DNA of 13,265 nucleotides, from IMG/VR virus record IMGVR_UViG_2939152649_000005; one strand, 5' to 3'. Source of the stretch: a virus. Its lineage: Duplodnaviria; Heunggongvirae; Uroviricota; Caudoviricetes. Positions 1-13,265 of the stretch are shown here, piece by piece (the stretch's first letter is position 1; each line of letters starts with the position of its first letter). The notes under the pieces were generated by a model. The model worked only from the letters and a program-made list of their open reading frames with translations. It searched no databases and had not been told where the DNA came from. The translations under genes and the position numbers were made by a program.

Positions 1-1236
<1,236 letters not shown>

Positions 1237-1240
<4 letters not shown>

Positions 1241-1563
1241 TTTTTCCAGAGGCGGTCGAACTCCGCCTTCGCAAAATAAGCGGAAGCCTGGCGAAGGATA
1301 TCGTTACTGCGGCGCAGTTCACGATTTTCACGTTCCAGCTCTTTCAGACGCTGACGTTCAGCGCTGGTGAGCCCACCATCACCGCCCCCGGTATCCCGCT
1401 CATGCTGGCGAACCCAGACACGCAGAGTCTCCGGCGTACAGCCAATCTTTGGGGCAATGGAACAAATTGCCGCCCACTGTGAGTCATATTCATCCTGACT
1501 TTCCAGAACCATACGGACTGCCCGTTGACGGACTTCGGGGGAAAAACGAGTATTTTTAGTCAT
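1237..1563 (-). CDS. IS3-family transposase OrfA (HTH/leucine-zipper N-terminal part)
   Basis: 108-aa [33 protein letters not shown]...RLWKK, recalled as the IS629-group OrfA. Ends in an A-run (TGGAAAAAATGATG) overlapping the orfB start, as expected for a -1 frameshift window. Confidence 0.9.
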
Positions 1564-1617
1564 CCTGTTTACCTCTTTCTCAGGAAGTTTAGTCTCCAGG
1601 ATTCCCGGGGCGGTTCA

Positions 1618-2615
1618 TACCCCATTACGCGCAAAGCCTTGTTCACCGTATTCTCACTCATCGGCTTACGTGGATCGTGATCGCCCACAAAAATCAGCTC
1701 TCAATTTCCGCTCATGCTTTTGATCTTTTCCAAAATACTTAGGGCCTGCCGCGACAAAGGTACAAGGTGTGGTGTCCGCATCTTCGAGCCACGCTGAGAA
1801 TGCTTGACTCCTTCCAGTTGCTCACGCTCACCTGGGATTGTCCACATAGCCGTTTCAAAATCTACTTCTGACCAGCGGGCAAAATGCAGCTCGCTCGAAC
1901 GGATGAAAACCAATAAAGTGAGTTCAACCGCCAGTCGAGTTAACGGTCTGCCAGAATAGTGATCTATGCGATGAAGTAATTCAGGTATACGGTTCAGTTC
2001 AAGAGCTGCACGGTGCTGTCTTTTCGCCGTAGCAACCGCACCTGCAATCTCTTGCGCGGGGTTGTAGTCGATTAAGCCGCTCTGAACGGCAAAGCGCATA
2101 ATCGCGGTAGTACGCTGCTGTAAACGGGCGGCAACTTCGAGCCGCCCGGATGACTCGACTGCTTTAATGGGTACAAGAAGATCCCGCGTCTTCAGTTCCG
2201 CAATGTTCCGCTTACCGATAGCAGTAAAGAGATTATCCTCCAGACTTTTCAAAACACGAGCGCTATGCGATGCCGACCACTTCTGATTGCTGGCGTGCCA
2301 GTCTCTGGCGACTACTTCAAACGTTATCGCCTCTTGTTCCTGTTCTACCTTAACAGCTTTCTTGTTTTCACTGGGATCGACACCATTAGCTAAAAGCTTA
2401 CGAGCCTCATCCCGGCGTGCCCTGGCATCCGCCAACGACACTTCGGGGTATTTCCCCAATGCCAGCATCTTCTCTTTACCGCCAAAGCGATAACGTAGCC
2501 GCCAGTATTTGGAGCCGTTAGGGTGAACCAGCAAAACCATGCCTTCACCGTCGGTCAGCTTATAGGCTTTTGCTTCAGGCTTAGCCGAACGAACCTTCAC
2601 ATCACTCAGAGCCAT
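1618..2615 (-). pseudogene. int: P4-type (DUF4102 + tyrosine recombinase) integrase, inactivated by an in-frame TGA at 1701-1703 and truncated at the IS junction
   Basis: The N-terminus MALSDVKVRSAKPEAKAYKLTDGEGMVLLVHPNGSKYWRLRYR... (ATG at 2613-2615, AAGGA upstream) is collinear with the intact paralog at 12003-13265. The ORF stops at ...KSMSGN*, but the same frame continues ELIFVGDHDPRKPMSENTVNKALRVMGY, aligning with SGKGEVIFPSDHDPKKVMSENTVNSALRVMGY of the paralog; the stop replaces a Gly codon. Homology ends at MGY, exactly at the IS terminus, so the C-terminal ~85 aa are missing. Confidence 0.85.
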
Positions 2616-2813
2616 GATGAGTATCCTTTCAAGGGTTCTGTGTGGGTACAAACATTATCGAACCGGGAAATACCCGCAGTTGTACCCGCATCAGTAAGTT
2701 GATGTAGATTGAATCAGGTTGACTTAGGTTGAGTGAAAAAGCGAGGAAAGCCTTGCGGATACTGGATTTTAGGCACAAAAAAAGACGTCCGTTGACGTCT
2801 ATTGATGTTCCGA

Positions 2814-2907: not shown

Positions 2908-3139
2908 ACTGAAATTTCACCACCATAACTTTGCTTGATTAATAACCAAATTACATGAATATTTTGGTTTGGGTCCGAATAACGGATACAAACCAGAACA
3001 GGACCTACCACCAGAACCGCTATTAGTTGTATCGAATTTGACACAATGCCCGCCCGCAGTAATCAAGCCGTCAAGCAAATATCGTTGTGCTGTTCATGAC
3101 ACACCTGATCCCTCAAGAATTGCTCACAGCGAGAAAAAT

Positions 3140-4195
3140 ATGGATACCCCGGACATAATTTCCGTACCAGAGGTCACTGCTGCGACAGAACCGCAGTCCT
3201 CTGCAGAATGCTTCACCTTTGGCGATCCCATTCCCGTACTGGACCGGCGCGAACTGCTGGACTATGTGGAATGCGCGCAGATGGATCGCTGGTATGAGCC
3301 GCCGGTGAGTTTTGCAGGGCTGGCACGTACCTACCGAGCAGCCGTACATCACAGTTCACCAATTGCCGTTAAGCGTGACATTCTCAGCAGTACCTACATC
3401 CCACACCGCCTGCTCAGTCAGCAGTCTTTTGCCCGTTTCGTTCAGGATTATCTGGTGTTTGGTAATGCCTATCTGGAAAAGCGTACTAACCGGCTGGGCG
3501 GCGTCCTCACACTGGAGCCAGCGCTGGCGAAATACACCCGGCGCGGCGTTGACCTGGAATCCTACTGGTTTGTTAACTATGGCCTGACAACGCAGCCTTA
3601 TGAGTTCACCAGAGGCAATATTTTTCACCTGATGGAACCGGATATTAACCAGGAAATTTACGGGCTGCCCGGCTACCTCTCCGCCATTCCGTCAACCCTG
3701 CTCAACGAGTCCGCAACGCTGTTCCGCCGGAAGTATTACATCAACGGCAGCCATGCGGGCTTCATCATGTACATGACCGACGCGGCGCAGAATCAGGAGG
3801 ATGTGAACAACATCCGCAAGGCAATGAAAAGCGCCAAAGGGCCGGGCAATTTCCGCAATCTGTTTATGTACTCACCCAATGGCAAAAAGGACGGCATCCA
3901 GATCATCCCGCTGTCAGAGGTGGCGGCGAAAGATGAGTTTCTGAACATCAAGAACGTGAGCCGTGATGACATGATGGCAGCGCACCGCGTGCCGCCGCAG
4001 ATGATGGGTATCATCCCCAGCAACACCGGCGGCTTTGGCGATGTGGAAAAGGCCAGCCGTGTTTTTGTCCGCAACGAACTGATGCCGCTGCAGAAGCGAC
4101 TGCAGGAGCTGAATAACTGGCTGGGCGAAGAAGTGATCTGCTTCGAGCCTTATTCTTTACAACTTGATGAAAGTGCTGATAGCAACAGGGGGTAA
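3140..4195 (+). CDS. Possible P2 gpQ-type phage portal protein (351 aa from the first ATG); the family assignment is tentative
   Basis: Long ORF with ordinary codon usage. The track ORF begins at a TTG at 2969; the first ATG is at 3140 (MDTPDIISVPEV...). Its size matches the ~340-350 aa I recall for P2 Q, and it is transcribed toward a structured candidate cos region, as P2 Q is. I cannot confirm the family from memory. Confidence 0.5.
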   Translation: MDTPDIISVPEVTAATEPQSSAECFTFGDPIPVLDRRELLDYVECAQMDRWYEPPVSFAGLARTYRAAVHHSSPIAVKRDILSSTYIPHRLLSQQSFARFVQDYLVFGNAYLEKRTNRLGGVLTLEPALAKYTRRGVDLESYWFVNYGLTTQPYEFTRGNIFHLMEPDINQEIYGLPGYLSAIPSTLLNESATLFRRKYYINGSHAGFIMYMTDAAQNQEDVNNIRKAMKSAKGPGNFRNLFMYSPNGKKDGIQIIPLSEVAAKDEFLNIKNVSRDDMMAAHRVPPQMMGIIPSNTGGFGDVEKASRVFVRNELMPLQKRLQELNNWLGEEVICFEPYSLQLDESADSNRG

Positions 4196-4198
4196 TGT

Positions 4199-4561
4199 AT
4201 GGGATGGATCGGCGTTGATCTGGATGGCACGCTGGCGGTGTACCCGCCAGAGAGCGGGGCGCTAATAGGTGATGCCATTCCCGGCATGGCGGAAAGGGTC
4301 CGCAAATGGCACAAGGATGATATTGAAGTACGAATTTTTACCGTCCGGGCTGGTTCGCGTGCCGGAGTGAAGCAAGTTAAAGCCTGGTTGAAAGCCAATG
4401 AACTGCCGGACCTGATGGTGACGAACGTTAAAGACAGCGGCATGGTGGAATTATGGGATGACAGAGCGATACGTGTTATCCGTAATACCGGTTCAGTATG
4501 CGCCGGTTGCAACGGCACATCGCAGTTCCACCACCATTCAGGAGATTTCACCAACTGCTGA
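4199..4561 (+). CDS. Small HAD-superfamily-like protein (putative minimal phosphatase/nucleotidase) with a Cys/His-rich C-terminal tail
   Basis: ATG at 4199 is 3 nt after the upstream stop and is preceded by AGGGGG. The N-terminus MGWIGVDLDGTLA matches HAD motif I (hhhhDxDGT). Motif-II-like Thr in RIFTVRAG, downstream lysines, and motif-IV-like ELWDDRA occur with spacing compatible with a cap-less HAD fold. The tail is SVCAGCNGTSQFHHHSGDFTNC. Confidence 0.6.
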   Translation: MGWIGVDLDGTLAVYPPESGALIGDAIPGMAERVRKWHKDDIEVRIFTVRAGSRAGVKQVKAWLKANELPDLMVTNVKDSGMVELWDDRAIRVIRNTGSVCAGCNGTSQFHHHSGDFTNC

Positions 4562-4633: not shown

Positions 4634-4863
4634 GCATGAACCATGCCACGGCACATGCGCCGCTCAGGTTGCCATTTCCCCCCTCTGCGCGCGCTGCCCC
4701 CCACGCCTGCCCGCTTCGCTTAACAGAATGGTTTTCATGCACCCCGTAAATCGCCTCAGGAGCCGCCACACAAGGGCTTTCACGTCAAAAATGATGCATG
4801 AGACTCATGCGTTTTCATGCGCCATAGACATGCACTCATGCGCTCTCAGGCCAGCCAGGAAAA

Positions 4864-4897
4864 AGGCGTAAAAAATCCCGGTGCCGGGCCGGGATTA
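4864..4897 (-). terminator. Rho-independent terminator for the minus-strand late operon (after the delta-like gene)
   Basis: Perfect 8-bp stem AATCCCGG/CCGGGATT with a 7-nt loop. On the minus-strand transcript the hairpin is followed directly by a U-run (UUUUUACGCCUUUU). It lies 20-50 nt beyond the stop of the 4917-5189 gene. Confidence 0.6.
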
Positions 4898-10431: not shown

Positions 10432-10617
10432 ATGGCAACGGGTTCAACTAACAACAAGTCGCAGCAACTTAATGCTCGTTTCCCACATGATGTAGTTGCA
10501 GAATTAGAAAGCAACCTTGAAGATGGAGAAACGAAAGCGCAATTTATTGTTACCGCTGTAAAAGGCGAGATTAAACGCCGACAGCGCAGGAAAAATAAGC
10601 CAGAGCAAGTAAACTGA
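10432..10617 (+). CDS. Small ribbon-helix-helix (Arc/MetJ-like) DNA-binding protein; candidate repressor
   Basis: 61 aa from the ATG at 10432, with a strong AAGGAG 8 nt upstream. NARFPHDVVAELE resembles the RHH N-terminal beta-strand/helix of Arc (NLRWPREVLDLV). It is divergent from the replication operon and followed by a terminator. Confidence 0.6.
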   Translation: MATGSTNNKSQQLNARFPHDVVAELESNLEDGETKAQFIVTAVKGEIKRRQRRKNKPEQVN

Positions 10618-10680: not shown

Positions 10681-10714
10681 AAGCCCACAAACTCAATTTG
10701 TCGGGCTTTTTTAT
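10681..10714 (+). terminator. Rho-independent terminator for the RHH gene, at the convergence with alpA
   Basis: AAGCCCACAA-actcaat-TTGTCGGGCTT hairpin (one bulge) followed by TTTTTTATT on the plus strand. Confidence 0.55.
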
Positions 10715-10944
10715 TAGTGATTTTCATGCCGTTCACCACGAGAGGCATATATTTGCTCTTGAATCCAGTGATCGACTTCGCTTTCAACAAATGAAATTGC
10801 ACGAGTTCCTATTTTCACCGGGCGGGGAAATGTATTGTTTGAAAGCTGTTTGTAAAGCCATGCCTTGCTACGCTGAACGCGTCTTAGCACCTCTTTTGCT
10901 GAGATAAGAGTCTGATTATCTGAAAGGTTGTTTGCATATTCCAT
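10714..10944 (-). CDS. alpA: AlpA-family phage regulatory protein (MerR-like HTH; excisionase/Vis-like)
   Basis: 76 aa from the ATG at 10944, with GGAG 7 nt upstream; the track ORF is extended by a GTG start. ...ISAKEVLRRVQRSKAWLYKQLSNNTFPRPVKIGTRAISFVESEVDHWIQEQI matches the AlpA signature I recall (L..EV....GLSRST.Y.....G.FP.P.K.G.R...W...E...W). Confidence 0.8.
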   Translation of the reverse strand: MEYANNLSDNQTLISAKEVLRRVQRSKAWLYKQLSNNTFPRPVKIGTRAISFVESEVDHWIQEQIYASRGERHENH

Positions 10945-11250
10945 CTTGTTACTCCGTGTTCTACTTAAGTTCACGGTGACTTTAAACAGTGTAAGAACAT
11001 GATTCTAGTGATAATGGAATCTATCGAAACCGATATAGTTTCTATTGAAAGATTTTTATTTCTATTAAAAATGAAATGCAAACTTGATCGGCATCTAGTT
11101 AAAAATAAAACACAATAATATCATAAAGTTAAATTATAACTTCGAGTTCAAAACATGGATTAAAGTCACTCAATGGGTATTCATTGCACTATAACACATC
11201 ATATTTCCCCATATCTCCCCAGTATTACGCAGTTTTAGCCAGTTTATTAC

Positions 11251-11290
11251 TATAGCCCCTTATAGCCCCTTATAGCCACTTATAGTCCTG
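11251..11290. repeat. 10-bp tandem repeat TATAGCCCCT x4 (two perfect, two degenerate copies)
   Basis: TATAGCCCCT TATAGCCCCT TATAGCCACT TATAGTCCTG read directly, 45-80 nt downstream of the 212-aa gene stop in an AT-rich spacer. Confidence 0.8.
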
Positions 11291-11333
11291 AATCAGGGTA
11301 AGAAATGAAAGACTTTTATCTACTAATAGAAAA

Positions 11334-11972
11334 TCATTTCCCATACTTAATAATATCATTCCCAATTTTTACTTTTTTATAAAACGTGGCTTTCTTAACC
11401 CCTTCCAGTGAAATTTGATGCTCATTACAAAAAGAGATAATATCATTATATATCACACTATTATCACCATAACTTGCCTTACCATATTTTTTGAGCAACT
11501 CAATTAATAATGAAATTAATTTACAATTATTATTATCTTCATCCTCTTTTCTGTATTGCCCTCTGCCATTACTCCTTAACTTTTTACCAACTTCATATAA
11601 TTCACTTCCTCCTAACATCATTAAAATATCGCCCCAATCTTTATTTTTTACTTGTTGTAGCAATGCGTTATCAATTCTTTCCTTAATTTCAGGAGGTACA
11701 ATATCTTCCCTCTGAAAGATATAAGCGGCAGTTAATACTAAATTCGCTTCCACTTTTTGCGTGGCGGATATGTTTTTATATTCATTAATTAATTGTAGAT
11801 TTCTGGTTATTGCCTTTCTTAACCTAATAACCTCTTTTAATTGAATATCAGTTAATTCATCATTTTCTGTATCATAGTCAAAACCATTCATAGCAAGCGC
11901 TACTTCGTGCGGCGTAATGTATGTTAACCTATTAAAATAAAACAAATTATTATCAGATTGAGTGTTATTCAT
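11334..11972 (-). CDS. Hypothetical protein, 212 aa, strongly AT-rich orphan cargo gene directly downstream of the integrase
   Basis: ATG at 11972 with GGAG 8 nt upstream, 30 nt after the integrase stop on the same strand. Asn/Lys/Ile-rich composition and AT-rich codons contrast with the GC-rich replication module. No motif recognised. Confidence 0.7.
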   Translation of the reverse strand: MNNTQSDNNLFYFNRLTYITPHEVALAMNGFDYDTENDELTDIQLKEVIRLRKAITRNLQLINEYKNISATQKVEANLVLTAAYIFQREDIVPPEIKERIDNALLQQVKNKDWGDILMMLGGSELYEVGKKLRSNGRGQYRKEDEDNNNCKLISLLIELLKKYGKASYGDNSVIYNDIISFCNEHQISLEGVKKATFYKKVKIGNDIIKYGK

Positions 11973-12002
11973 TTGAATTTCTCCTCAGAGCCACAATGGT
12001 AA

Positions 12003-13265
12003 TTATTTTCCATGCACACGCGCAAAATCATATGGTGTGATAGATCCATTCTTGTTAGCATCAATGTAATCAGCCCACCATTGCAGCATTAATTTTCTTT
12101 CTTCAAGATATTCAGATGTATGCATGTATGAACCTTTCACGTTTTTTCGTTCAACGTGACTTAGCTGTCTTTCAATGGCATCATCATTCCATAGTTTCGA
12201 CTCACTTAGCGCACCACGCGCCATAGTTCTAAAACCATGCCCACATACTTCTGTCTTCGTATCATATCCCATTACACGTAAGGCACTATTTACAGTATTT
12301 TCACTCATTACTTTTTTAGGATCATGATCGCTGGGAAATATAACCTCGCCTTTACCGCTCAAGGCATGTAAACGTTTAAAAATATCAAATGCTTGTTTGC
12401 TAAGCGGAACAATATGTTCAGTTTTCATCTTCATCCCACGCTCAGAGTGTTTTACGCCGGGAATAGGTTTACGAATTCCGGGTATCGTCCACTCGCTTCG
12501 TTCAAAGTTAACCTCACTCCATCGAGCAAAACGCATCTCACTTGAACGAATAAATGTGAGTAGCGTTAATTCAACGGCAAGCCGTGTCATTAGTCGCCCT
12601 TTATAGCGTGATAGTCTTTCAAGAAACTCAGGGATTCTTTTTGGGGGTAGTGCTGGGTGATGGGTTGCCTTAACGCTTAAAAGCGCTCCAGCCATATCAC
12701 TGGCAGGATTTGATTCAAGAAGGTCATTCTGCACACCGAAACGCATAATTGCGGTTACGCGCTGCATCAGTCGCTGCGCAACATCATGTTTACCTGCCGC
12801 ATCAACAGCTTTGATCGGATTGAGAAGCTGGCTGGTTCTCAACGTTCTGGCGTCAATTTGACCTATCGAGGGGAAAATATACTGCTCAAGCGTCAGCAGA
12901 ACGCGACGGCTATGATCTTCGCTCCAAGTTAGGTTACTTGCGTGCCATTGCCTTGCGATAGTTTCAAATAAATATGCCCCCTCAATTTCAGCTTGTGCCC
13001 CCTTTTGCTCAGCTTTGGGGTCAATGCCCTGAGACAACAATTTCTTTGCTGCATCGCGCTTACCCCTAGCCTCAGCCAAAGTGATCGTCGGGTATACACC
13101 AAAAGCGAGCCGATCTTCCTTTTTGTCAGATGGGCGGCGATATTTCATGCGCCAATACTTGGAACCTTTTGGGGAGACTTCAAGATACAAGCCGCCTCCA
13201 TCAGCCATTTTATAGGCTTTCTCTTTCGGCTTTGCGGTCTCTATCTGGCGAGCATTGAGTTTCAT
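12003..13265 (-). CDS. int: P4-type tyrosine integrase (DUF4102 N-terminal domain + catalytic domain), apparently intact, 420 aa
   Basis: The ORF runs from an ATG formed by the last 3 nt of the window to a stop at 12003. The N-terminus MKLNARQIETAKPKEKAYKMADGGGLYLEVSPKGSKYWRMKYR is collinear with the pseudogene at 1618-2615. It retains the C-terminal part the pseudogene lacks, including HGFRTMARGAL (box II H-x-x-R) and downstream Tyr residues. Confidence 0.9.
   Translation of the reverse strand: MKLNARQIETAKPKEKAYKMADGGGLYLEVSPKGSKYWRMKYRRPSDKKEDRLAFGVYPTITLAEARGKRDAAKKLLSQGIDPKAEQKGAQAEIEGAYLFETIARQWHASNLTWSEDHSRRVLLTLEQYIFPSIGQIDARTLRTSQLLNPIKAVDAAGKHDVAQRLMQRVTAIMRFGVQNDLLESNPASDMAGALLSVKATHHPALPPKRIPEFLERLSRYKGRLMTRLAVELTLLTFIRSSEMRFARWSEVNFERSEWTIPGIRKPIPGVKHSERGMKMKTEHIVPLSKQAFDIFKRLHALSGKGEVIFPSDHDPKKVMSENTVNSALRVMGYDTKTEVCGHGFRTMARGALSESKLWNDDAIERQLSHVERKNVKGSYMHTSEYLEERKLMLQWWADYIDANKNGSITPYDFARVHGK

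What the first reader, a model, noticed from the sequence alone, without database searches (positions are those of the whole stretch)
11334..11972. AT-rich 212-aa orphan gene wedged between the integrase and alpA
The gene sits 30 nt after the integrase stop on the same strand with its own GGAG RBS. Its composition (Asn/Lys/Ile-rich, AT-rich codons) differs sharply from the GC-rich replication module a few hundred bp away, arguing for separate horizontal acquisition. It is followed by an AT-rich spacer with tandem repeats before alpA. Single genes immediately next to the integrase of satellites and prophages are frequently abortive-infection, exclusion or toxin-like factors. I recognise no motif, so it is a candidate for an uncharacterised function.
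Basis: partly seen in the sequence, partly recalled or inferred. Interest (0 to 1): 0.7.

Follow-up and report, generated by a model that had tools for sequence, protein, structure and literature searches.

The report
Integrase-linked gene tied to alpA promoter boxes
A real, conserved but uncharacterised 212-aa gene sits right after the integrase of an E. coli phage satellite. It always co-occurs with a regular array of short DNA boxes in front of the satellite's master-switch gene alpA, so it is more likely a regulator of that switch than a swappable anti-phage cargo gene.

Summary
Window 11334-11972 (minus strand) encodes a 212-aa protein. It starts 30 nt after the integrase stop, behind a GAGGAG ribosome-binding site. 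GC is 29.7%, and an AT-rich, repeat-bearing spacer separates it from alpA.

It is not an orphan. It matches phrog_30524 and belongs to a small Enterobacterales family (33 clusters at 50% identity). It is under strong purifying selection (dN/dS 0.05-0.14). No Pfam, PADLOC or NCBIfam match reaches threshold, and a confident AlphaFold model (pLDDT 90.8) has no structural neighbour.

In all ~20 contexts examined, down to 21% identity, the gene directly follows a P4-type integrase, often overlapping its stop. In all but two of them a 270-590-nt spacer and alpA come next.

Within this lineage the gene is constant, and the swappable cargo (for example a retron) lies at the far end of the element.

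New finding: ORF212-positive loci carry an array of TYRATRGAA boxes at 17-21-bp spacing, about 60-125 nt upstream of alpA. At least two boxes occur in 11/12 positive loci and 0/10 negative loci. Strictly spaced arrays occur in 16/23 positive loci and nowhere in 625 kb of negative loci.

Best model (confidence about 0.45): a regulator co-expressed with integrase that gates the alpA promoter. Main rival (about 0.3): an accessory exclusion or defence gene.

The parts
12003..13265 (-). P4-type tyrosine integrase (420 aa). The window ends at its ATG. tRNA-Leu attL lies just beyond the window.
   Evidence: Pfam Arm-DNA-bind_3, Phage_int_M and Phage_integrase. tRNA-Leu lies 165 nt upstream in L001. 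The protein is 98% identical in Erwinia, Yokenella and Izhakiella elements.
11973..12002 (-). 30-nt int-ORF212 junction with a GAGGAG Shine-Dalgarno 8 nt before the ATG. No terminator or credible promoter was predicted, so co-transcription with int is inferred.
   Evidence: Sequence read directly. Promoter and terminator scan. In homologs the gap is 1, 2, 8, 29-49 or 98 nt, or a 1- or 4-nt overlap.
11334..11972 (-). ORF212: an all-alpha 212-aa protein of an uncharacterised family (phrog_30524). Conserved patches are T20..E23.ALA..G30, P93, G121-G122, G136-R-G-x-Y-R-K-x-D-E145, K151-L-I..L156 and G191..(S/A)-T-F-Y-x-K200.
   Evidence: AF2 pLDDT 90.8. No structural neighbour. dN/dS 0.05-0.14.
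11323..11331 (+). Isolated inverted box copy (CTAATAGAA, one mismatch) 3 nt beyond the ORF212 stop. It is part of a 15-nt inverted repeat with the array region (arms 11039-11053 and 11318-11332).
   Evidence: Its significance is unknown.
11251..11288 (.). Class-2 repeats: TATAGCCCCT x3.5 in tandem with a 10-bp period. They are allele-specific, and other loci carry different 10-bp tandem units at the same relative place.
   Evidence: (nowhere else in the 34.7-kb L001). Possibly AlpA sites; this is speculative.
11003..11068 (-). Class-1 box array (consensus TYRATRGAA). On the gene strand: TTAATAGAA (11060-11068), TCAATAGAA (11040-11048), TCGATAGAT (11019-11027, abutted by an inverted half-site at 11011-11019) and TCACTAGAA (11003-11011). 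Spacing is 20, 21 and 16 bp. The array lies 59-124 nt upstream of the alpA ATG.
   Evidence: These include the only exact boxes and the only regularly spaced array in the window. The array is specific to ORF212-positive loci.
10945..11002 (-). Putative alpA promoter and leader: TTTAAA, then 17 nt, then TAGAAC (a weak -10), then the GGAG Shine-Dalgarno.
   Evidence: Read from the alignment of upstream regions. This is inference only; the consensus scan did not call it.
10714..10944 (-). alpA (76 aa from the ATG at 10944). It is the master activator / excision regulator of Gram-negative satellites.
   Evidence: Pfam Phage_AlpA E=1.9e-11. RefSeq start. Role taken from PMC6092414.

Best explanation
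ORF212 encodes a satellite regulator made together with the integrase while the element is quiescent. It recognises the array of TYRATRGAA boxes, placed on one face of the helix 59-124 nt upstream of alpA. Through this it gates transcription of AlpA, the activator that starts excision and replication.

The most natural version is a keeper or sensor, functionally analogous to Stl/Rpr, the master repressors of Gram-positive PICIs (phage-inducible chromosomal islands). It would hold PalpA, the alpA promoter, off, or poised, until a helper-phage product acts on it.

**Shown**
- The gene is real and under purifying selection.
- It is always int-proximal and often overlaps the int stop.
- ORF212, the spacer and alpA diverge together.
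- The box array is present when, and essentially only when, ORF212 is present.

**Inferred**
- Co-transcription with int.
- DNA binding by ORF212.
- The direction of regulation (repression or activation).
- Any link to the helper phage.
For: 1. **Position.** In ~20 contexts the gene lies directly after int. The gap is 1-98 nt, or the genes overlap by 1-4 nt. In all but two contexts a 270-590-nt spacer and alpA follow.
2. **Module behaviour.** Between the window and Erwinia, Int is 98% identical, ORF212 70% and AlpA 83%. dS is 0.15 for int, 2.3 for ORF212 and 1.4 for alpA, with a breakpoint at the int stop. The AlpA clade with 'RVQRSKAWLYKQL' always comes with ORF212.
3. **Box array.** At least two boxes lie in -200..-20 of alpA in 11/12 ORF212-positive loci against 0/10 negative loci (Fisher p=3.4e-5). 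Each of the 11 positive loci with boxes exceeds its dinucleotide shuffles (P<=0.026). Three of four held-out loci fit the prediction, one of them upstream of an alpA that had not been annotated. Spacing-aware arrays occur in 16/23 positive loci, once each and always at PalpA, and nowhere in 625 kb from 78 negative int/alpA loci.
4. **Other readers are unlikely.** Boxes persist where Int, AlpA and ORF212 are only ~25-35% identical and the rest of the spacer cannot be aligned. L023 has an Int 80% identical and an AlpA 56% identical to the window's but no boxes, whereas L002 and L017, with AlpA at 26-44%, have them. This argues against Int or AlpA reading the boxes. The positive elements also use different helper types.
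5. **Weak DNA-binding hints.** The C-terminal G-x-x-K-S-T-F-Y-x-K motif aligns with AlpA's turn plus recognition helix (hhalign P=0.0023). Sub-threshold Phage_AlpA, SpoIIID and Mu-Igamma HTH hits fall on that motif. Family pI is mostly 8.3-9.5.
6. **Open niche.** The literature says a global repressor of Gram-negative PICIs is 'unclear'. alpA transcription depends on the helper through an unknown inducer (PMC6092414).
Against: - No recognised DNA-binding domain reaches threshold.
- The model shows a 9-residue loop where a canonical HTH has a tight turn.
- The window protein's pI is 6.8.
- ORF212 and the array lie <=600 bp apart and are inherited as one block. Their co-occurrence could therefore reflect linkage, with another factor (host, helper or AlpA) binding the boxes.
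- L100 has the gene but no boxes. L099 has boxes in front of a non-AlpA gene.
- Related satellites work with an empty slot or with unrelated slot genes. The function is therefore dispensable for the satellite life cycle in general, as expected for an accessory gene.
- The array sits upstream of a weak promoter. That position suits an activator at least as well as a repressor.
- A reverse search for exact box pairs in IMG/VR found only unrelated loci.
Confidence: 0.45

Rival explanations
1. ORF212 is an accessory 'moron' gene, a non-essential passenger gene: a single-gene superinfection-exclusion, abortive-infection or host-modulating factor. It is expressed from the integrase promoter in the quiescent satellite. 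On this view the box array is simply part of that alpA promoter allele and is bound by something else.
For: - The slot is variable across the wider family: unrelated 200-350-aa ORFs or nothing.
- Three different slot genes sit next to ~80%-identical AlpAs in the sister clade.
- The gene is AT-rich, like much horizontally moved cargo.
- In L100 the homolog is immediately followed by Abi_alpha and Mrr-type nuclease genes.
- The literature places PICI accessory genes between int and the regulator (PMC10085698).
- P4-type integrases abut a defence hotspot in canonical P4 elements.
- EcCIMP1, which also has a gene in this slot, shows unexplained superinfection immunity (PMC11773190).
Against: - No PADLOC hit and no nuclease, ATPase, TIR, SIR2, toxin-like or transmembrane features in a confident model.
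- Within the lineage the gene is constant in 203-205 E. coli genomes, while the distal cargo varies (retron versus portal-like).
- It keeps its position across three integrase clades down to 21% identity, unlike fast-swapping hotspot genes.
- This reading does not explain why a conserved, regularly spaced box array tracks the gene.
Confidence: 0.3
2. ORF212 is an integrase accessory factor. It would be translationally coupled to Int and would modulate recombination: directionality, att-site synapsis or Int stability.
For: - Invariable adjacency to int, with 1-4-nt overlaps or 1-8-nt gaps in many loci, suggests matched expression.
Against: - The same Int (98% identical) pairs with ORF212 alleles only 65-71% identical.
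- Int at 80% and 75% identity pairs with unrelated slot genes. Close Int relatives in canonical P4 elements have none.
- The family serves three Int clades that are only 24-30% identical to each other.
- AlpA is already the excision factor (PMC6092414).
- The box array lies 2 kb from attL. No box array was found in the stretches beside attL that were scanned; the distal att end was not located.
Confidence: 0.1
3. The array is an iteron-type origin or partition site, and ORF212 is its initiator or centromere-binding protein.
For: Four direct repeats at ~20-bp spacing in AT-rich DNA resemble plasmid iterons.
Against: - The elements already encode an alpha-type primase-helicase (Toprim + DUF927). 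In Gram-negative PICIs the origin lies downstream of the primase gene (PMC10111431).
- ORF212 shows no winged-helix Rep or ParB-like fold.
- The array sits at a fixed distance from the alpA start codon, as expected for a promoter element.
Confidence: 0.05

Closest known systems
Stl / Rpr master repressors of Gram-positive PICIs (SaPIs)
   Same: - The gene lies next to int, between int and the excision/replication genes.
- It would be expressed in the quiescent island.
- It is all-alpha and of similar size.
- Alleles are highly divergent while the integrases stay conserved.
- The proposed role is the same: gating the island's induction switch in response to a helper.
   Different: - No sequence or structural similarity was detected.
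- It is co-directional with the regulated gene rather than divergent from it.
- DNA binding and anti-repression by a helper protein are untested.
- Its target would be the promoter of an activator (AlpA). It could itself be an activator.
AlpA / Vis / MerR-type winged-HTH regulators (Pfam PF05930)
   Same: A short C-terminal motif (G-x-x-K-S-T-F-Y-x-K) aligns with the turn and recognition helix of AlpA. Both are encoded in the 'integration zone' of Gram-negative satellites.
   Different: - ORF212 is three times larger.
- It is below every Pfam threshold.
- It has no wing or beta-hairpin in the model.
- The similarity covers only 17 residues.
P4 psu-int defence hotspot cargo (Rousset et al. 2022; bioRxiv 10.64898/2026.02.27.708500)
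   Same: The gene lies immediately beside a P4-type integrase at the same tRNA-Leu site. It is AT-rich and of unknown function. Satellites are known to carry defence genes there.
   Different: - In this lineage int is followed by alpA, not by psu-delta-sid.
- The gene is constant while the distal end varies.
- It has no defence-family match.
- It is conserved in position down to 21% identity, rather than swapped.
phrog_30524 (PHROGs v4, unknown function)
   Same: Full-length match, E=1.9e-105. This is the same family.
   Different: The PHROG carries no annotation, so the match adds no functional information.

Membership tests
phrog_30524 | Full-length HMM match | tested here: met
   E=1.9e-105; residues 1-211 match profile positions 1-219 of 220. 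The function is annotated as unknown.
Stl/Rpr-type PICI master repressor (functional class) | Encoded next to int, between int and the excision/replication genes | tested here: met
   The order int-ORF212-spacer-alpA-...-primase holds in nearly all contexts; L099 and L100 differ after the ORF.
Stl/Rpr-type PICI master repressor (functional class) | Transcribed divergently from the operon it controls | tested here: not met
   ORF212 and alpA are on the same strand in every locus that has alpA.
Stl/Rpr-type PICI master repressor (functional class) | Sequence-specific DNA binding (HTH) to operators in the regulatory intergenic region | tested here: inconclusive
   A candidate operator array tracks the gene. 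The protein has only sub-threshold, local HTH similarity and no structural HTH match.
Stl/Rpr-type PICI master repressor (functional class) | Derepression by binding a helper-phage protein | not testable with these tools
   This needs genetics or biochemistry with a helper phage.
Stl/Rpr-type PICI master repressor (functional class) | Homology to known Stl/Rpr proteins | tested here: not met
   No PDB sequence or fold match and no Pfam match.
Known anti-phage defence systems (PADLOC-DB v2) | HMM match to a defence protein family | tested here: not met
   Zero families at E<=10. The Cap4_nuclease Pfam hit has E=0.039 and 14.6 bits against a cut-off of 26.2.
Known anti-phage defence systems (PADLOC-DB v2) | Protection against phage when expressed | not testable with these tools
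   This needs plaque assays.
P4 psu-int hotspot cargo | Located between int and psu-delta-sid in a canonical P4 layout | tested here: not met
   Here int is followed by ORF212 and alpA. The sid-like and delta genes lie after the primase. Canonical P4 elements at the same tRNA-Leu carry SIR2, GmrSD or KwaB instead.
P4 psu-int hotspot cargo | Rapid turnover between closely related elements | tested here: not met
   The block is present in 203 of 205 E. coli elements with this integrase. By contrast, the distal cargo of the window is full-length in only 5 genomes.
Phage_AlpA / MerR-type HTH (PF05930) | Pfam gathering threshold (21 bits) | tested here: not met
   There is no hit for the window protein. 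Two relatives score 13-15 bits over ~20-25 residues. hhalign against an AlpA alignment gives 12% probability.
Recombination directionality factors (Xis/Vis/Cox type) | Small (<~120 aa) basic winged-helix protein acting with its cognate integrase | tested here: not met
   ORF212 is 212 aa, all-alpha, with pI 6.8. It is not tied to one integrase clade.

The most novel reading that the evidence does not exclude
ORF212 founds a new-fold family of helper-sensing master regulators for AlpA-type Gram-negative satellites. It sits on the TYRATRGAA array and blocks, or poises, PalpA until a specific helper-phage protein binds it. This would be the long-missing counterpart of Stl. Its allelic diversity would then reflect an arms race over which helpers can induce which satellite.
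Probability: 0.25. Interest if true: 0.8.

Novelty: new variant of a known kind. Interest (0 to 1): 0.6.

Why it matters
How Gram-negative PICI and P4-like satellites sense their helper and switch on alpA is an open question. Fillol-Salom et al. 2018 state that a global repressor is 'unclear' and the inducer unknown.

This work identifies a conserved protein family of unknown fold that is genetically locked to a regular operator-like array in the alpA promoter. That provides a concrete candidate and defined DNA sites (window 11003-11068) that can be tested directly by EMSA, reporter fusions and deletion.

The block is present in about 4% of complete E. coli genomes and in Enterobacter, Citrobacter, Salmonella, Klebsiella and Erwinia.

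If instead it proves to be an exclusion gene, it would be a new single-gene defence with no known relatives. Either way, the work separates the constant int-proximal module from the true variable cargo site at the far end of this satellite lineage.

Tried and rejected
- **Family libraries.** Pfam, NCBIfam and PADLOC gave nothing at threshold for the window protein. The Cap4_nuclease (E=0.039) and EncB (E=0.062) hits were rejected as noise.
- **PDB sequence profiles.** The only hits were the ING5 coiled coil and a designed helical protein, both taken as helical-composition artefacts.
- **First AF2 run.** Twelve close sequences gave pLDDT 55, which was unusable. A 25-sequence alignment gave 90.8.
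- **The search for related loci.** With the close alignment it found only 3 loci among the species-representative genomes.
- **Remote homology to the alternative slot proteins.** hhalign was not significant. A motif resemblance in L060 (WRGKNTAWKMIAGLAIAL) aligned at E=0.22 only.
- **Reverse test.** Exact box pairs in IMG/VR gave 102 loci. None had ORF212 or AlpA, so these are chance hits or unrelated repeats. The test was uninformative, partly because the ORF212-positive IMG/VR contigs have TTAATAGAA as their first box.
- **Loose cluster rule.** Requiring >=3 boxes within 110 nt also yields about one chance cluster per 50 kb in AT-rich cargo. I replaced it with a spacing-aware rule.
- **Known RNAs in the spacer.** Rfam found none.
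- **Other candidate readers of the boxes.** I considered IHF, H-NS, Fur, RcsB and Ogr/Delta sites from memory. None fits all box variants, and none was formally tested.
- **Residue-to-box covariation** (ATAGAA versus ATGGAA). There were too few independent lineages and one exception, so I dropped it.
Full report
**1. The observation**

The window matches E. coli NCTC11023 at 100% identity (NZ_LS483297.1). On the minus strand it carries a satellite integrated at a tRNA-Leu gene. The gene order is:
- int (13265-12003)
- ORF212 (11972-11334)
- a 389-nt spacer
- alpA (10944-10714)
- a YlcI/YnfO-family gene on the opposite strand, an Icd-like gene, two hypothetical genes and a DUF5375 gene
- a Toprim+DUF927 primase (9023-6351)
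- a Sid/Psu-like gene
- an Ogr/Delta gene

ORF212 starts 30 nt after the int stop, with a GAGGAG Shine-Dalgarno 8 nt before its ATG. Its GC content is 0.297 and GC3 is 0.249, against 0.448 for int, 0.420 for alpA and 0.603 for the primase. It is rich in Leu, Asn, Lys and Ile. The spacer has GC 0.316 and contains TATAGCCCCT x3.5.

**2. It is a real gene and not an orphan**

ORF212 matches phrog_30524 over its full length (E=1.9e-105). The word-indexed search found 22 clusters at 90% identity, one with 1315 member sequences. The named sources are Escherichia, Citrobacter, Enterobacter, Salmonella, Klebsiella, Erwinia and Yokenella.

An exhaustive profile search of 1.84 billion representatives found only 33 clusters at 50% identity. 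About 22 of these are full-length, standalone proteins of 206-241 aa. The int-ORF212-alpA block occurs in 205 of 5426 complete E. coli genomes, and in 203 of them it is essentially complete. dN/dS is 0.05-0.14.

**3. What the protein looks like**

Nothing reaches threshold in Pfam, NCBIfam or PADLOC. AlphaFold2 gave pLDDT 55 with 12 close homologs. With 25 diverse homologs it gave pLDDT 90.8 and pTM 0.62, an all-alpha model of ten helices. The invariant G-R-G-x-Y-R-K-x-D-E motif sits at the tip of a long helical hairpin.

No structural neighbour was found:
- Foldseek against PDB: best E 2.3.
- Foldseek against BFVD: best E 0.65.

The conserved C-terminal motif G-(I/V/L)-x-K-(S/A)-T-F-Y-x-K resembles the turn and recognition helix of AlpA/resolvase-type HTHs. 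Support for this is weak. hhalign against an AlpA alignment pairs residues 188-204 with AlpA 21-37 (P=0.0023, probability 12%). Several relatives give sub-threshold Phage_AlpA, SpoIIID or Mu-Igamma HTH hits on that stretch. Family pI is mostly 8.3-9.5, although the window protein's is 6.8.

**4. Synteny**

I examined about 20 contexts: L001-L006, L011-L022 and L097-L101. In every one the homolog lies directly after a P4-type integrase (Arm-DNA-bind_3, Phage_int_M, Phage_integrase). The gap is 1-98 nt, or the genes overlap by 1-4 nt. In most loci a 270-590-nt AT-rich spacer, alpA and a DUF927 primase follow.

This holds down to 21% protein identity and at different chromosomal sites (tRNA-Leu next to ahr, and next to yicC). 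It also holds in elements with different downstream modules:
- Phage_ASH or AntA
- Icd plus DUF5375
- a P2-type capsid gene
- the capsid-forming-PICI-like vB_KppS-Ant, which carries terminase, capsid and portal genes

**5. Is the slot a cargo hotspot?**

I fetched 78 IMG/VR loci with integrases 99-31% identical to the window's and classified what follows int.

| Integrase identity to window | What follows int |
|---|---|
| 98-99% | ORF212 family, then alpA |
| 80% | 352-aa DUF6387 protein, then alpA |
| 75% | 202/228-aa ORF, then alpA |
| 69-75% | mostly the canonical P4 layout: int, hotspot, then psu-delta-sid inverted |
| 58% | 246-251-aa ORF overlapping the int stop, then alpA |
| 47-51% | in several loci, an empty 470-620-nt spacer, then alpA |
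| 32% | 241-aa ORF, then alpA |

None of the alternative ORFs is detectably related to ORF212. None belongs to a known defence family. Canonical P4 elements at the same tRNA-Leu in E. coli carry SIR2, GmrSD or KwaB next to int.

The slot is therefore variable at the scale of the integrase family.

Within the ORF212 lineage the gene is constant, and the variable cargo lies elsewhere. The common E. coli variant (L097) has sid-psu-delta followed by a retron St85 system at the distal end. The window has a portal-like gene plus a 120-aa ORF there and lacks psu. That cargo is full-length in only 5 genomes, against 205 for the int-ORF212-alpA block.

**6. Evolutionary pattern**

| Comparison | Int identity | ORF212 identity | AlpA identity |
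|---|---|---|---|
| Window vs Erwinia / Yokenella / Izhakiella | 98% | 65-71% | ~82% |
| Window vs L014 | 89% | 41% | 57% |
| L016 vs L017 | 73% | 25% | 33% |

Synonymous divergence shows that this is mosaicism rather than fast evolution. Between the window and Erwinia, dS is 0.15 for int, 2.3 for ORF212 and 1.4 for alpA. Nucleotide identity drops from 97% to 60-67% exactly at the int stop.

ORF212, the spacer and alpA are therefore old, co-diverged alleles, and int is the recently exchanged part. Low GC is a family trait (0.30-0.38 in nine loci).

AlpA sequences fall into clades:
- The 'RVQRSKAWLYKQL' clade always has ORF212.
- A sister clade ('RTGYSKAWIYRLI') has three different slot genes.
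- A third clade has an empty slot.

**7. The key new finding: a box array in the alpA promoter tracks ORF212**

Repeat analysis of the spacers revealed two classes of repeat.

*Class 1.* This lies just upstream of alpA and has the consensus TYRATRGAA, with about four direct copies at 17-21-bp spacing. The third copy is often abutted by an inverted half-site (TTCCATT). In the window, on the gene strand, the copies are:
- TTAATAGAA (11060-11068)
- TCAATAGAA (11040-11048)
- TCGATAGAT (11019-11027)
- TCACTAGAA (11003-11011)

They lie 59-124 nt upstream of the alpA ATG.

The same architecture is present in loci whose Int, AlpA and ORF212 are only ~25-35% identical and whose spacers are otherwise unalignable (L002, L016, L017). 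It is absent from every ORF212-negative alpA promoter examined. The statistics are:
- At least two boxes (one mismatch allowed, same strand, -200..-20) occur in 11/12 ORF212-positive loci against 0/10 negative loci. Fisher p=3.4e-5. Each of the 11 positive loci with boxes exceeds its dinucleotide shuffles (P<=0.026).
- A held-out test on four divergent members fetched afterwards gave 3/4 positives. One of these (L101) lay upstream of an alpA that had not been annotated, which Pfam then confirmed at E=1.3e-10.
- A loose cluster rule also fires about once per 50 kb in AT-rich cargo.
- A spacing-aware rule (>=3 boxes, consecutive spacing 16-23 bp) finds one array in 16 of 23 positive loci, always at PalpA (the alpA promoter) in gene orientation. 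It finds none in 625 kb from 78 negative int/alpA loci.

*Class 2.* These are 10-bp tandem repeats just after the ORF212 stop. They are allele-specific: AGGGGCTATA in the window, and CATTCAACAG, GGTATTGGCC and CAAAGCACTA in other loci. By eye, similar repeats also occur in ORF212-negative spacers, so they may be AlpA sites. That is speculation.

**8. Who reads the boxes?**

- *Int is unlikely.* L023's Int is 80% identical to the window's, but its alpA promoter has no boxes.
- *AlpA is unlikely.* AlpAs at 51-56% identity lack boxes, while AlpAs at 26-44% identity have them. No recognition-helix feature is shared only by the positive set.
- *A helper-encoded factor is less likely.* The positive elements belong to satellite types that exploit different helpers.
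- *ORF212 is the only gene found in all array-bearing loci and in none of the negative loci.*

This is an inference from co-occurrence. The gene and the array are physically linked, so shared descent cannot be excluded as the whole explanation. However, conservation of the boxes across saturated divergence shows that they are under selection.

**9. Mechanism proposed**

ORF212 is made with Int in the quiescent satellite. Co-transcription is inferred from the short or overlapping junctions and from the absence of predicted terminators or promoters. It binds the array on one face of the helix, immediately upstream of a weak alpA promoter. Through this it gates AlpA, which is known to auto-activate and to trigger excision and replication once a helper is present (PMC6092414; PMC11773190).

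Repression relieved by a helper protein, as with Stl, is the most natural reading. Activation cannot be excluded, because the array sits where class-I activators bind. My confidence in this model is about 0.45.

**10. Rivals**

- *An accessory exclusion or defence 'moron' gene (a non-essential passenger gene), about 0.3.* This is supported by the slot's variability, the AT-richness, the L100 neighbourhood (Abi_alpha and Mrr) and precedents in satellites. It is weakened by the gene's constancy within the lineage, the lack of any defence signature, and the unexplained array association.
- *An integrase accessory factor, about 0.1.* This is contradicted by the promiscuous pairing with integrase clades.
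- *An iteron/Rep or partition system, about 0.05.* This is contradicted by the fold and by the presence of the alpha-type primase.

**11. Comparison with known systems, and novelty**

Functionally, the closest analogue is the Stl/Rpr master repressor of Gram-positive PICIs. The two share position next to int, allelic diversity and the proposed role. Membership fails on homology and on divergent transcription, and DNA binding is unproven. ORF212 is not a member of any PADLOC family, nor of the P4 psu-int hotspot as defined.

No paper in the library mentions this family or the accession of the common E. coli variant. I rate it a new variant of a known kind: a satellite induction-switch regulator built from an unrelated protein of unknown fold with its own operator array. 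Interest is 0.6.

Noticed in passing
window 350-2651: A second, truncated P4-type integrase (1701-2651, minus strand, 53% identical to the first) is cut by an IS3-family element. The element comprises orfA 1237-1563 and orfB 350-1240, with an ALIL frameshift pseudoknot at 1166-1282 (Rfam 121 bits). This looks like the remnant of a tandem island beside the satellite.
   Followed up: partly
window 2969-4561: At the distal end of the satellite, relatives carry psu followed by a retron St85 system. The window instead has a Phage_portal-family gene (Pfam E=3.5e-18) plus a 120-aa ORF with no family, on the opposite strand, and it lacks psu. The full-length version occurs in only 5 of 5426 E. coli genomes. 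A portal-like gene is unusual cargo for a P4-like satellite.
   Followed up: partly
window ~11973-12060 (3' end of int); L004, L006, L012: There is a sharp mosaic breakpoint at the int stop. int is 97-98% identical at nucleotide level (dS ~0.15) between Escherichia, Erwinia, Yokenella, Izhakiella and Pseudocitrobacter elements. The adjacent ORF212 and alpA are saturated (dS 1.4-2.3). The integrase gene has apparently spread or been homogenised recently across genera.
   Followed up: yes
window 11251-11288; L002 7130-7169; L098 ~4830-4870; L099 ~4790-4825; L101 ~2330-2365: Allele-specific 10-bp tandem repeats lie just downstream of the ORF212 stop in many loci, with a different unit in each allele. 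Similar 10-bp tandems appear by eye in ORF212-negative alpA upstream regions (e.g. L089). They may be AlpA/excisionase-type sites; this was not tested.
   Followed up: partly
L100 1963-4895: In one degraded relative (fragmented int), an Abi_alpha gene, a 271-aa ORF and an Mrr_cat nuclease are inserted between the ORF212 homolog and alpA. That alpA promoter lacks TYRATRGAA boxes but has TCCGGAC x3 at ~20-bp spacing. This could be a change of specificity or a different regulator.
   Followed up: no
L023 1402-2460; L099 1583-2400: DUF6387 proteins recur as occupants of the int-alpA slot. One is a 352-aa ORF after an 80%-identical integrase. Another is a split DUF6387 next to an inverted AlpA, beside an ORF212-bearing element. 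This looks like another uncharacterised family associated with this slot.
   Followed up: no
L060 6259-6999 and L065 6259-7014: The 246-251-aa slot protein of the Int-58% clade overlaps the int stop by 8 nt. It contains WRGKNTAWKMIAGLAIAL, which is reminiscent of ORF212's GRGxYRKxDExxNxxKLIGLLIxLL. hhalign aligns exactly this stretch, but at E=0.22. It may be a very distant relative.
   Followed up: partly
window 10950-10975 and equivalents in L003, L004, L006, L014: A conserved GTGWAC-N7-8-AGAACA element lies immediately upstream of the alpA Shine-Dalgarno in the window-type AlpA clade. Its role is unknown.
   Followed up: no
window 10432-10617 (+): A small YlcI/YnfO-family gene (phrog_949) is transcribed convergently toward alpA, between alpA and the Icd-like gene. 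It is the only plus-strand gene in the satellite's early region.
   Followed up: no
window 10714-10974: The mechanical ORF call for alpA starts at a GTG (86 aa). The ATG at 10944 (76 aa) has the GGAG Shine-Dalgarno, matches RefSeq and matches the homologs. All distances to the boxes are counted from 10944.
   Followed up: yes
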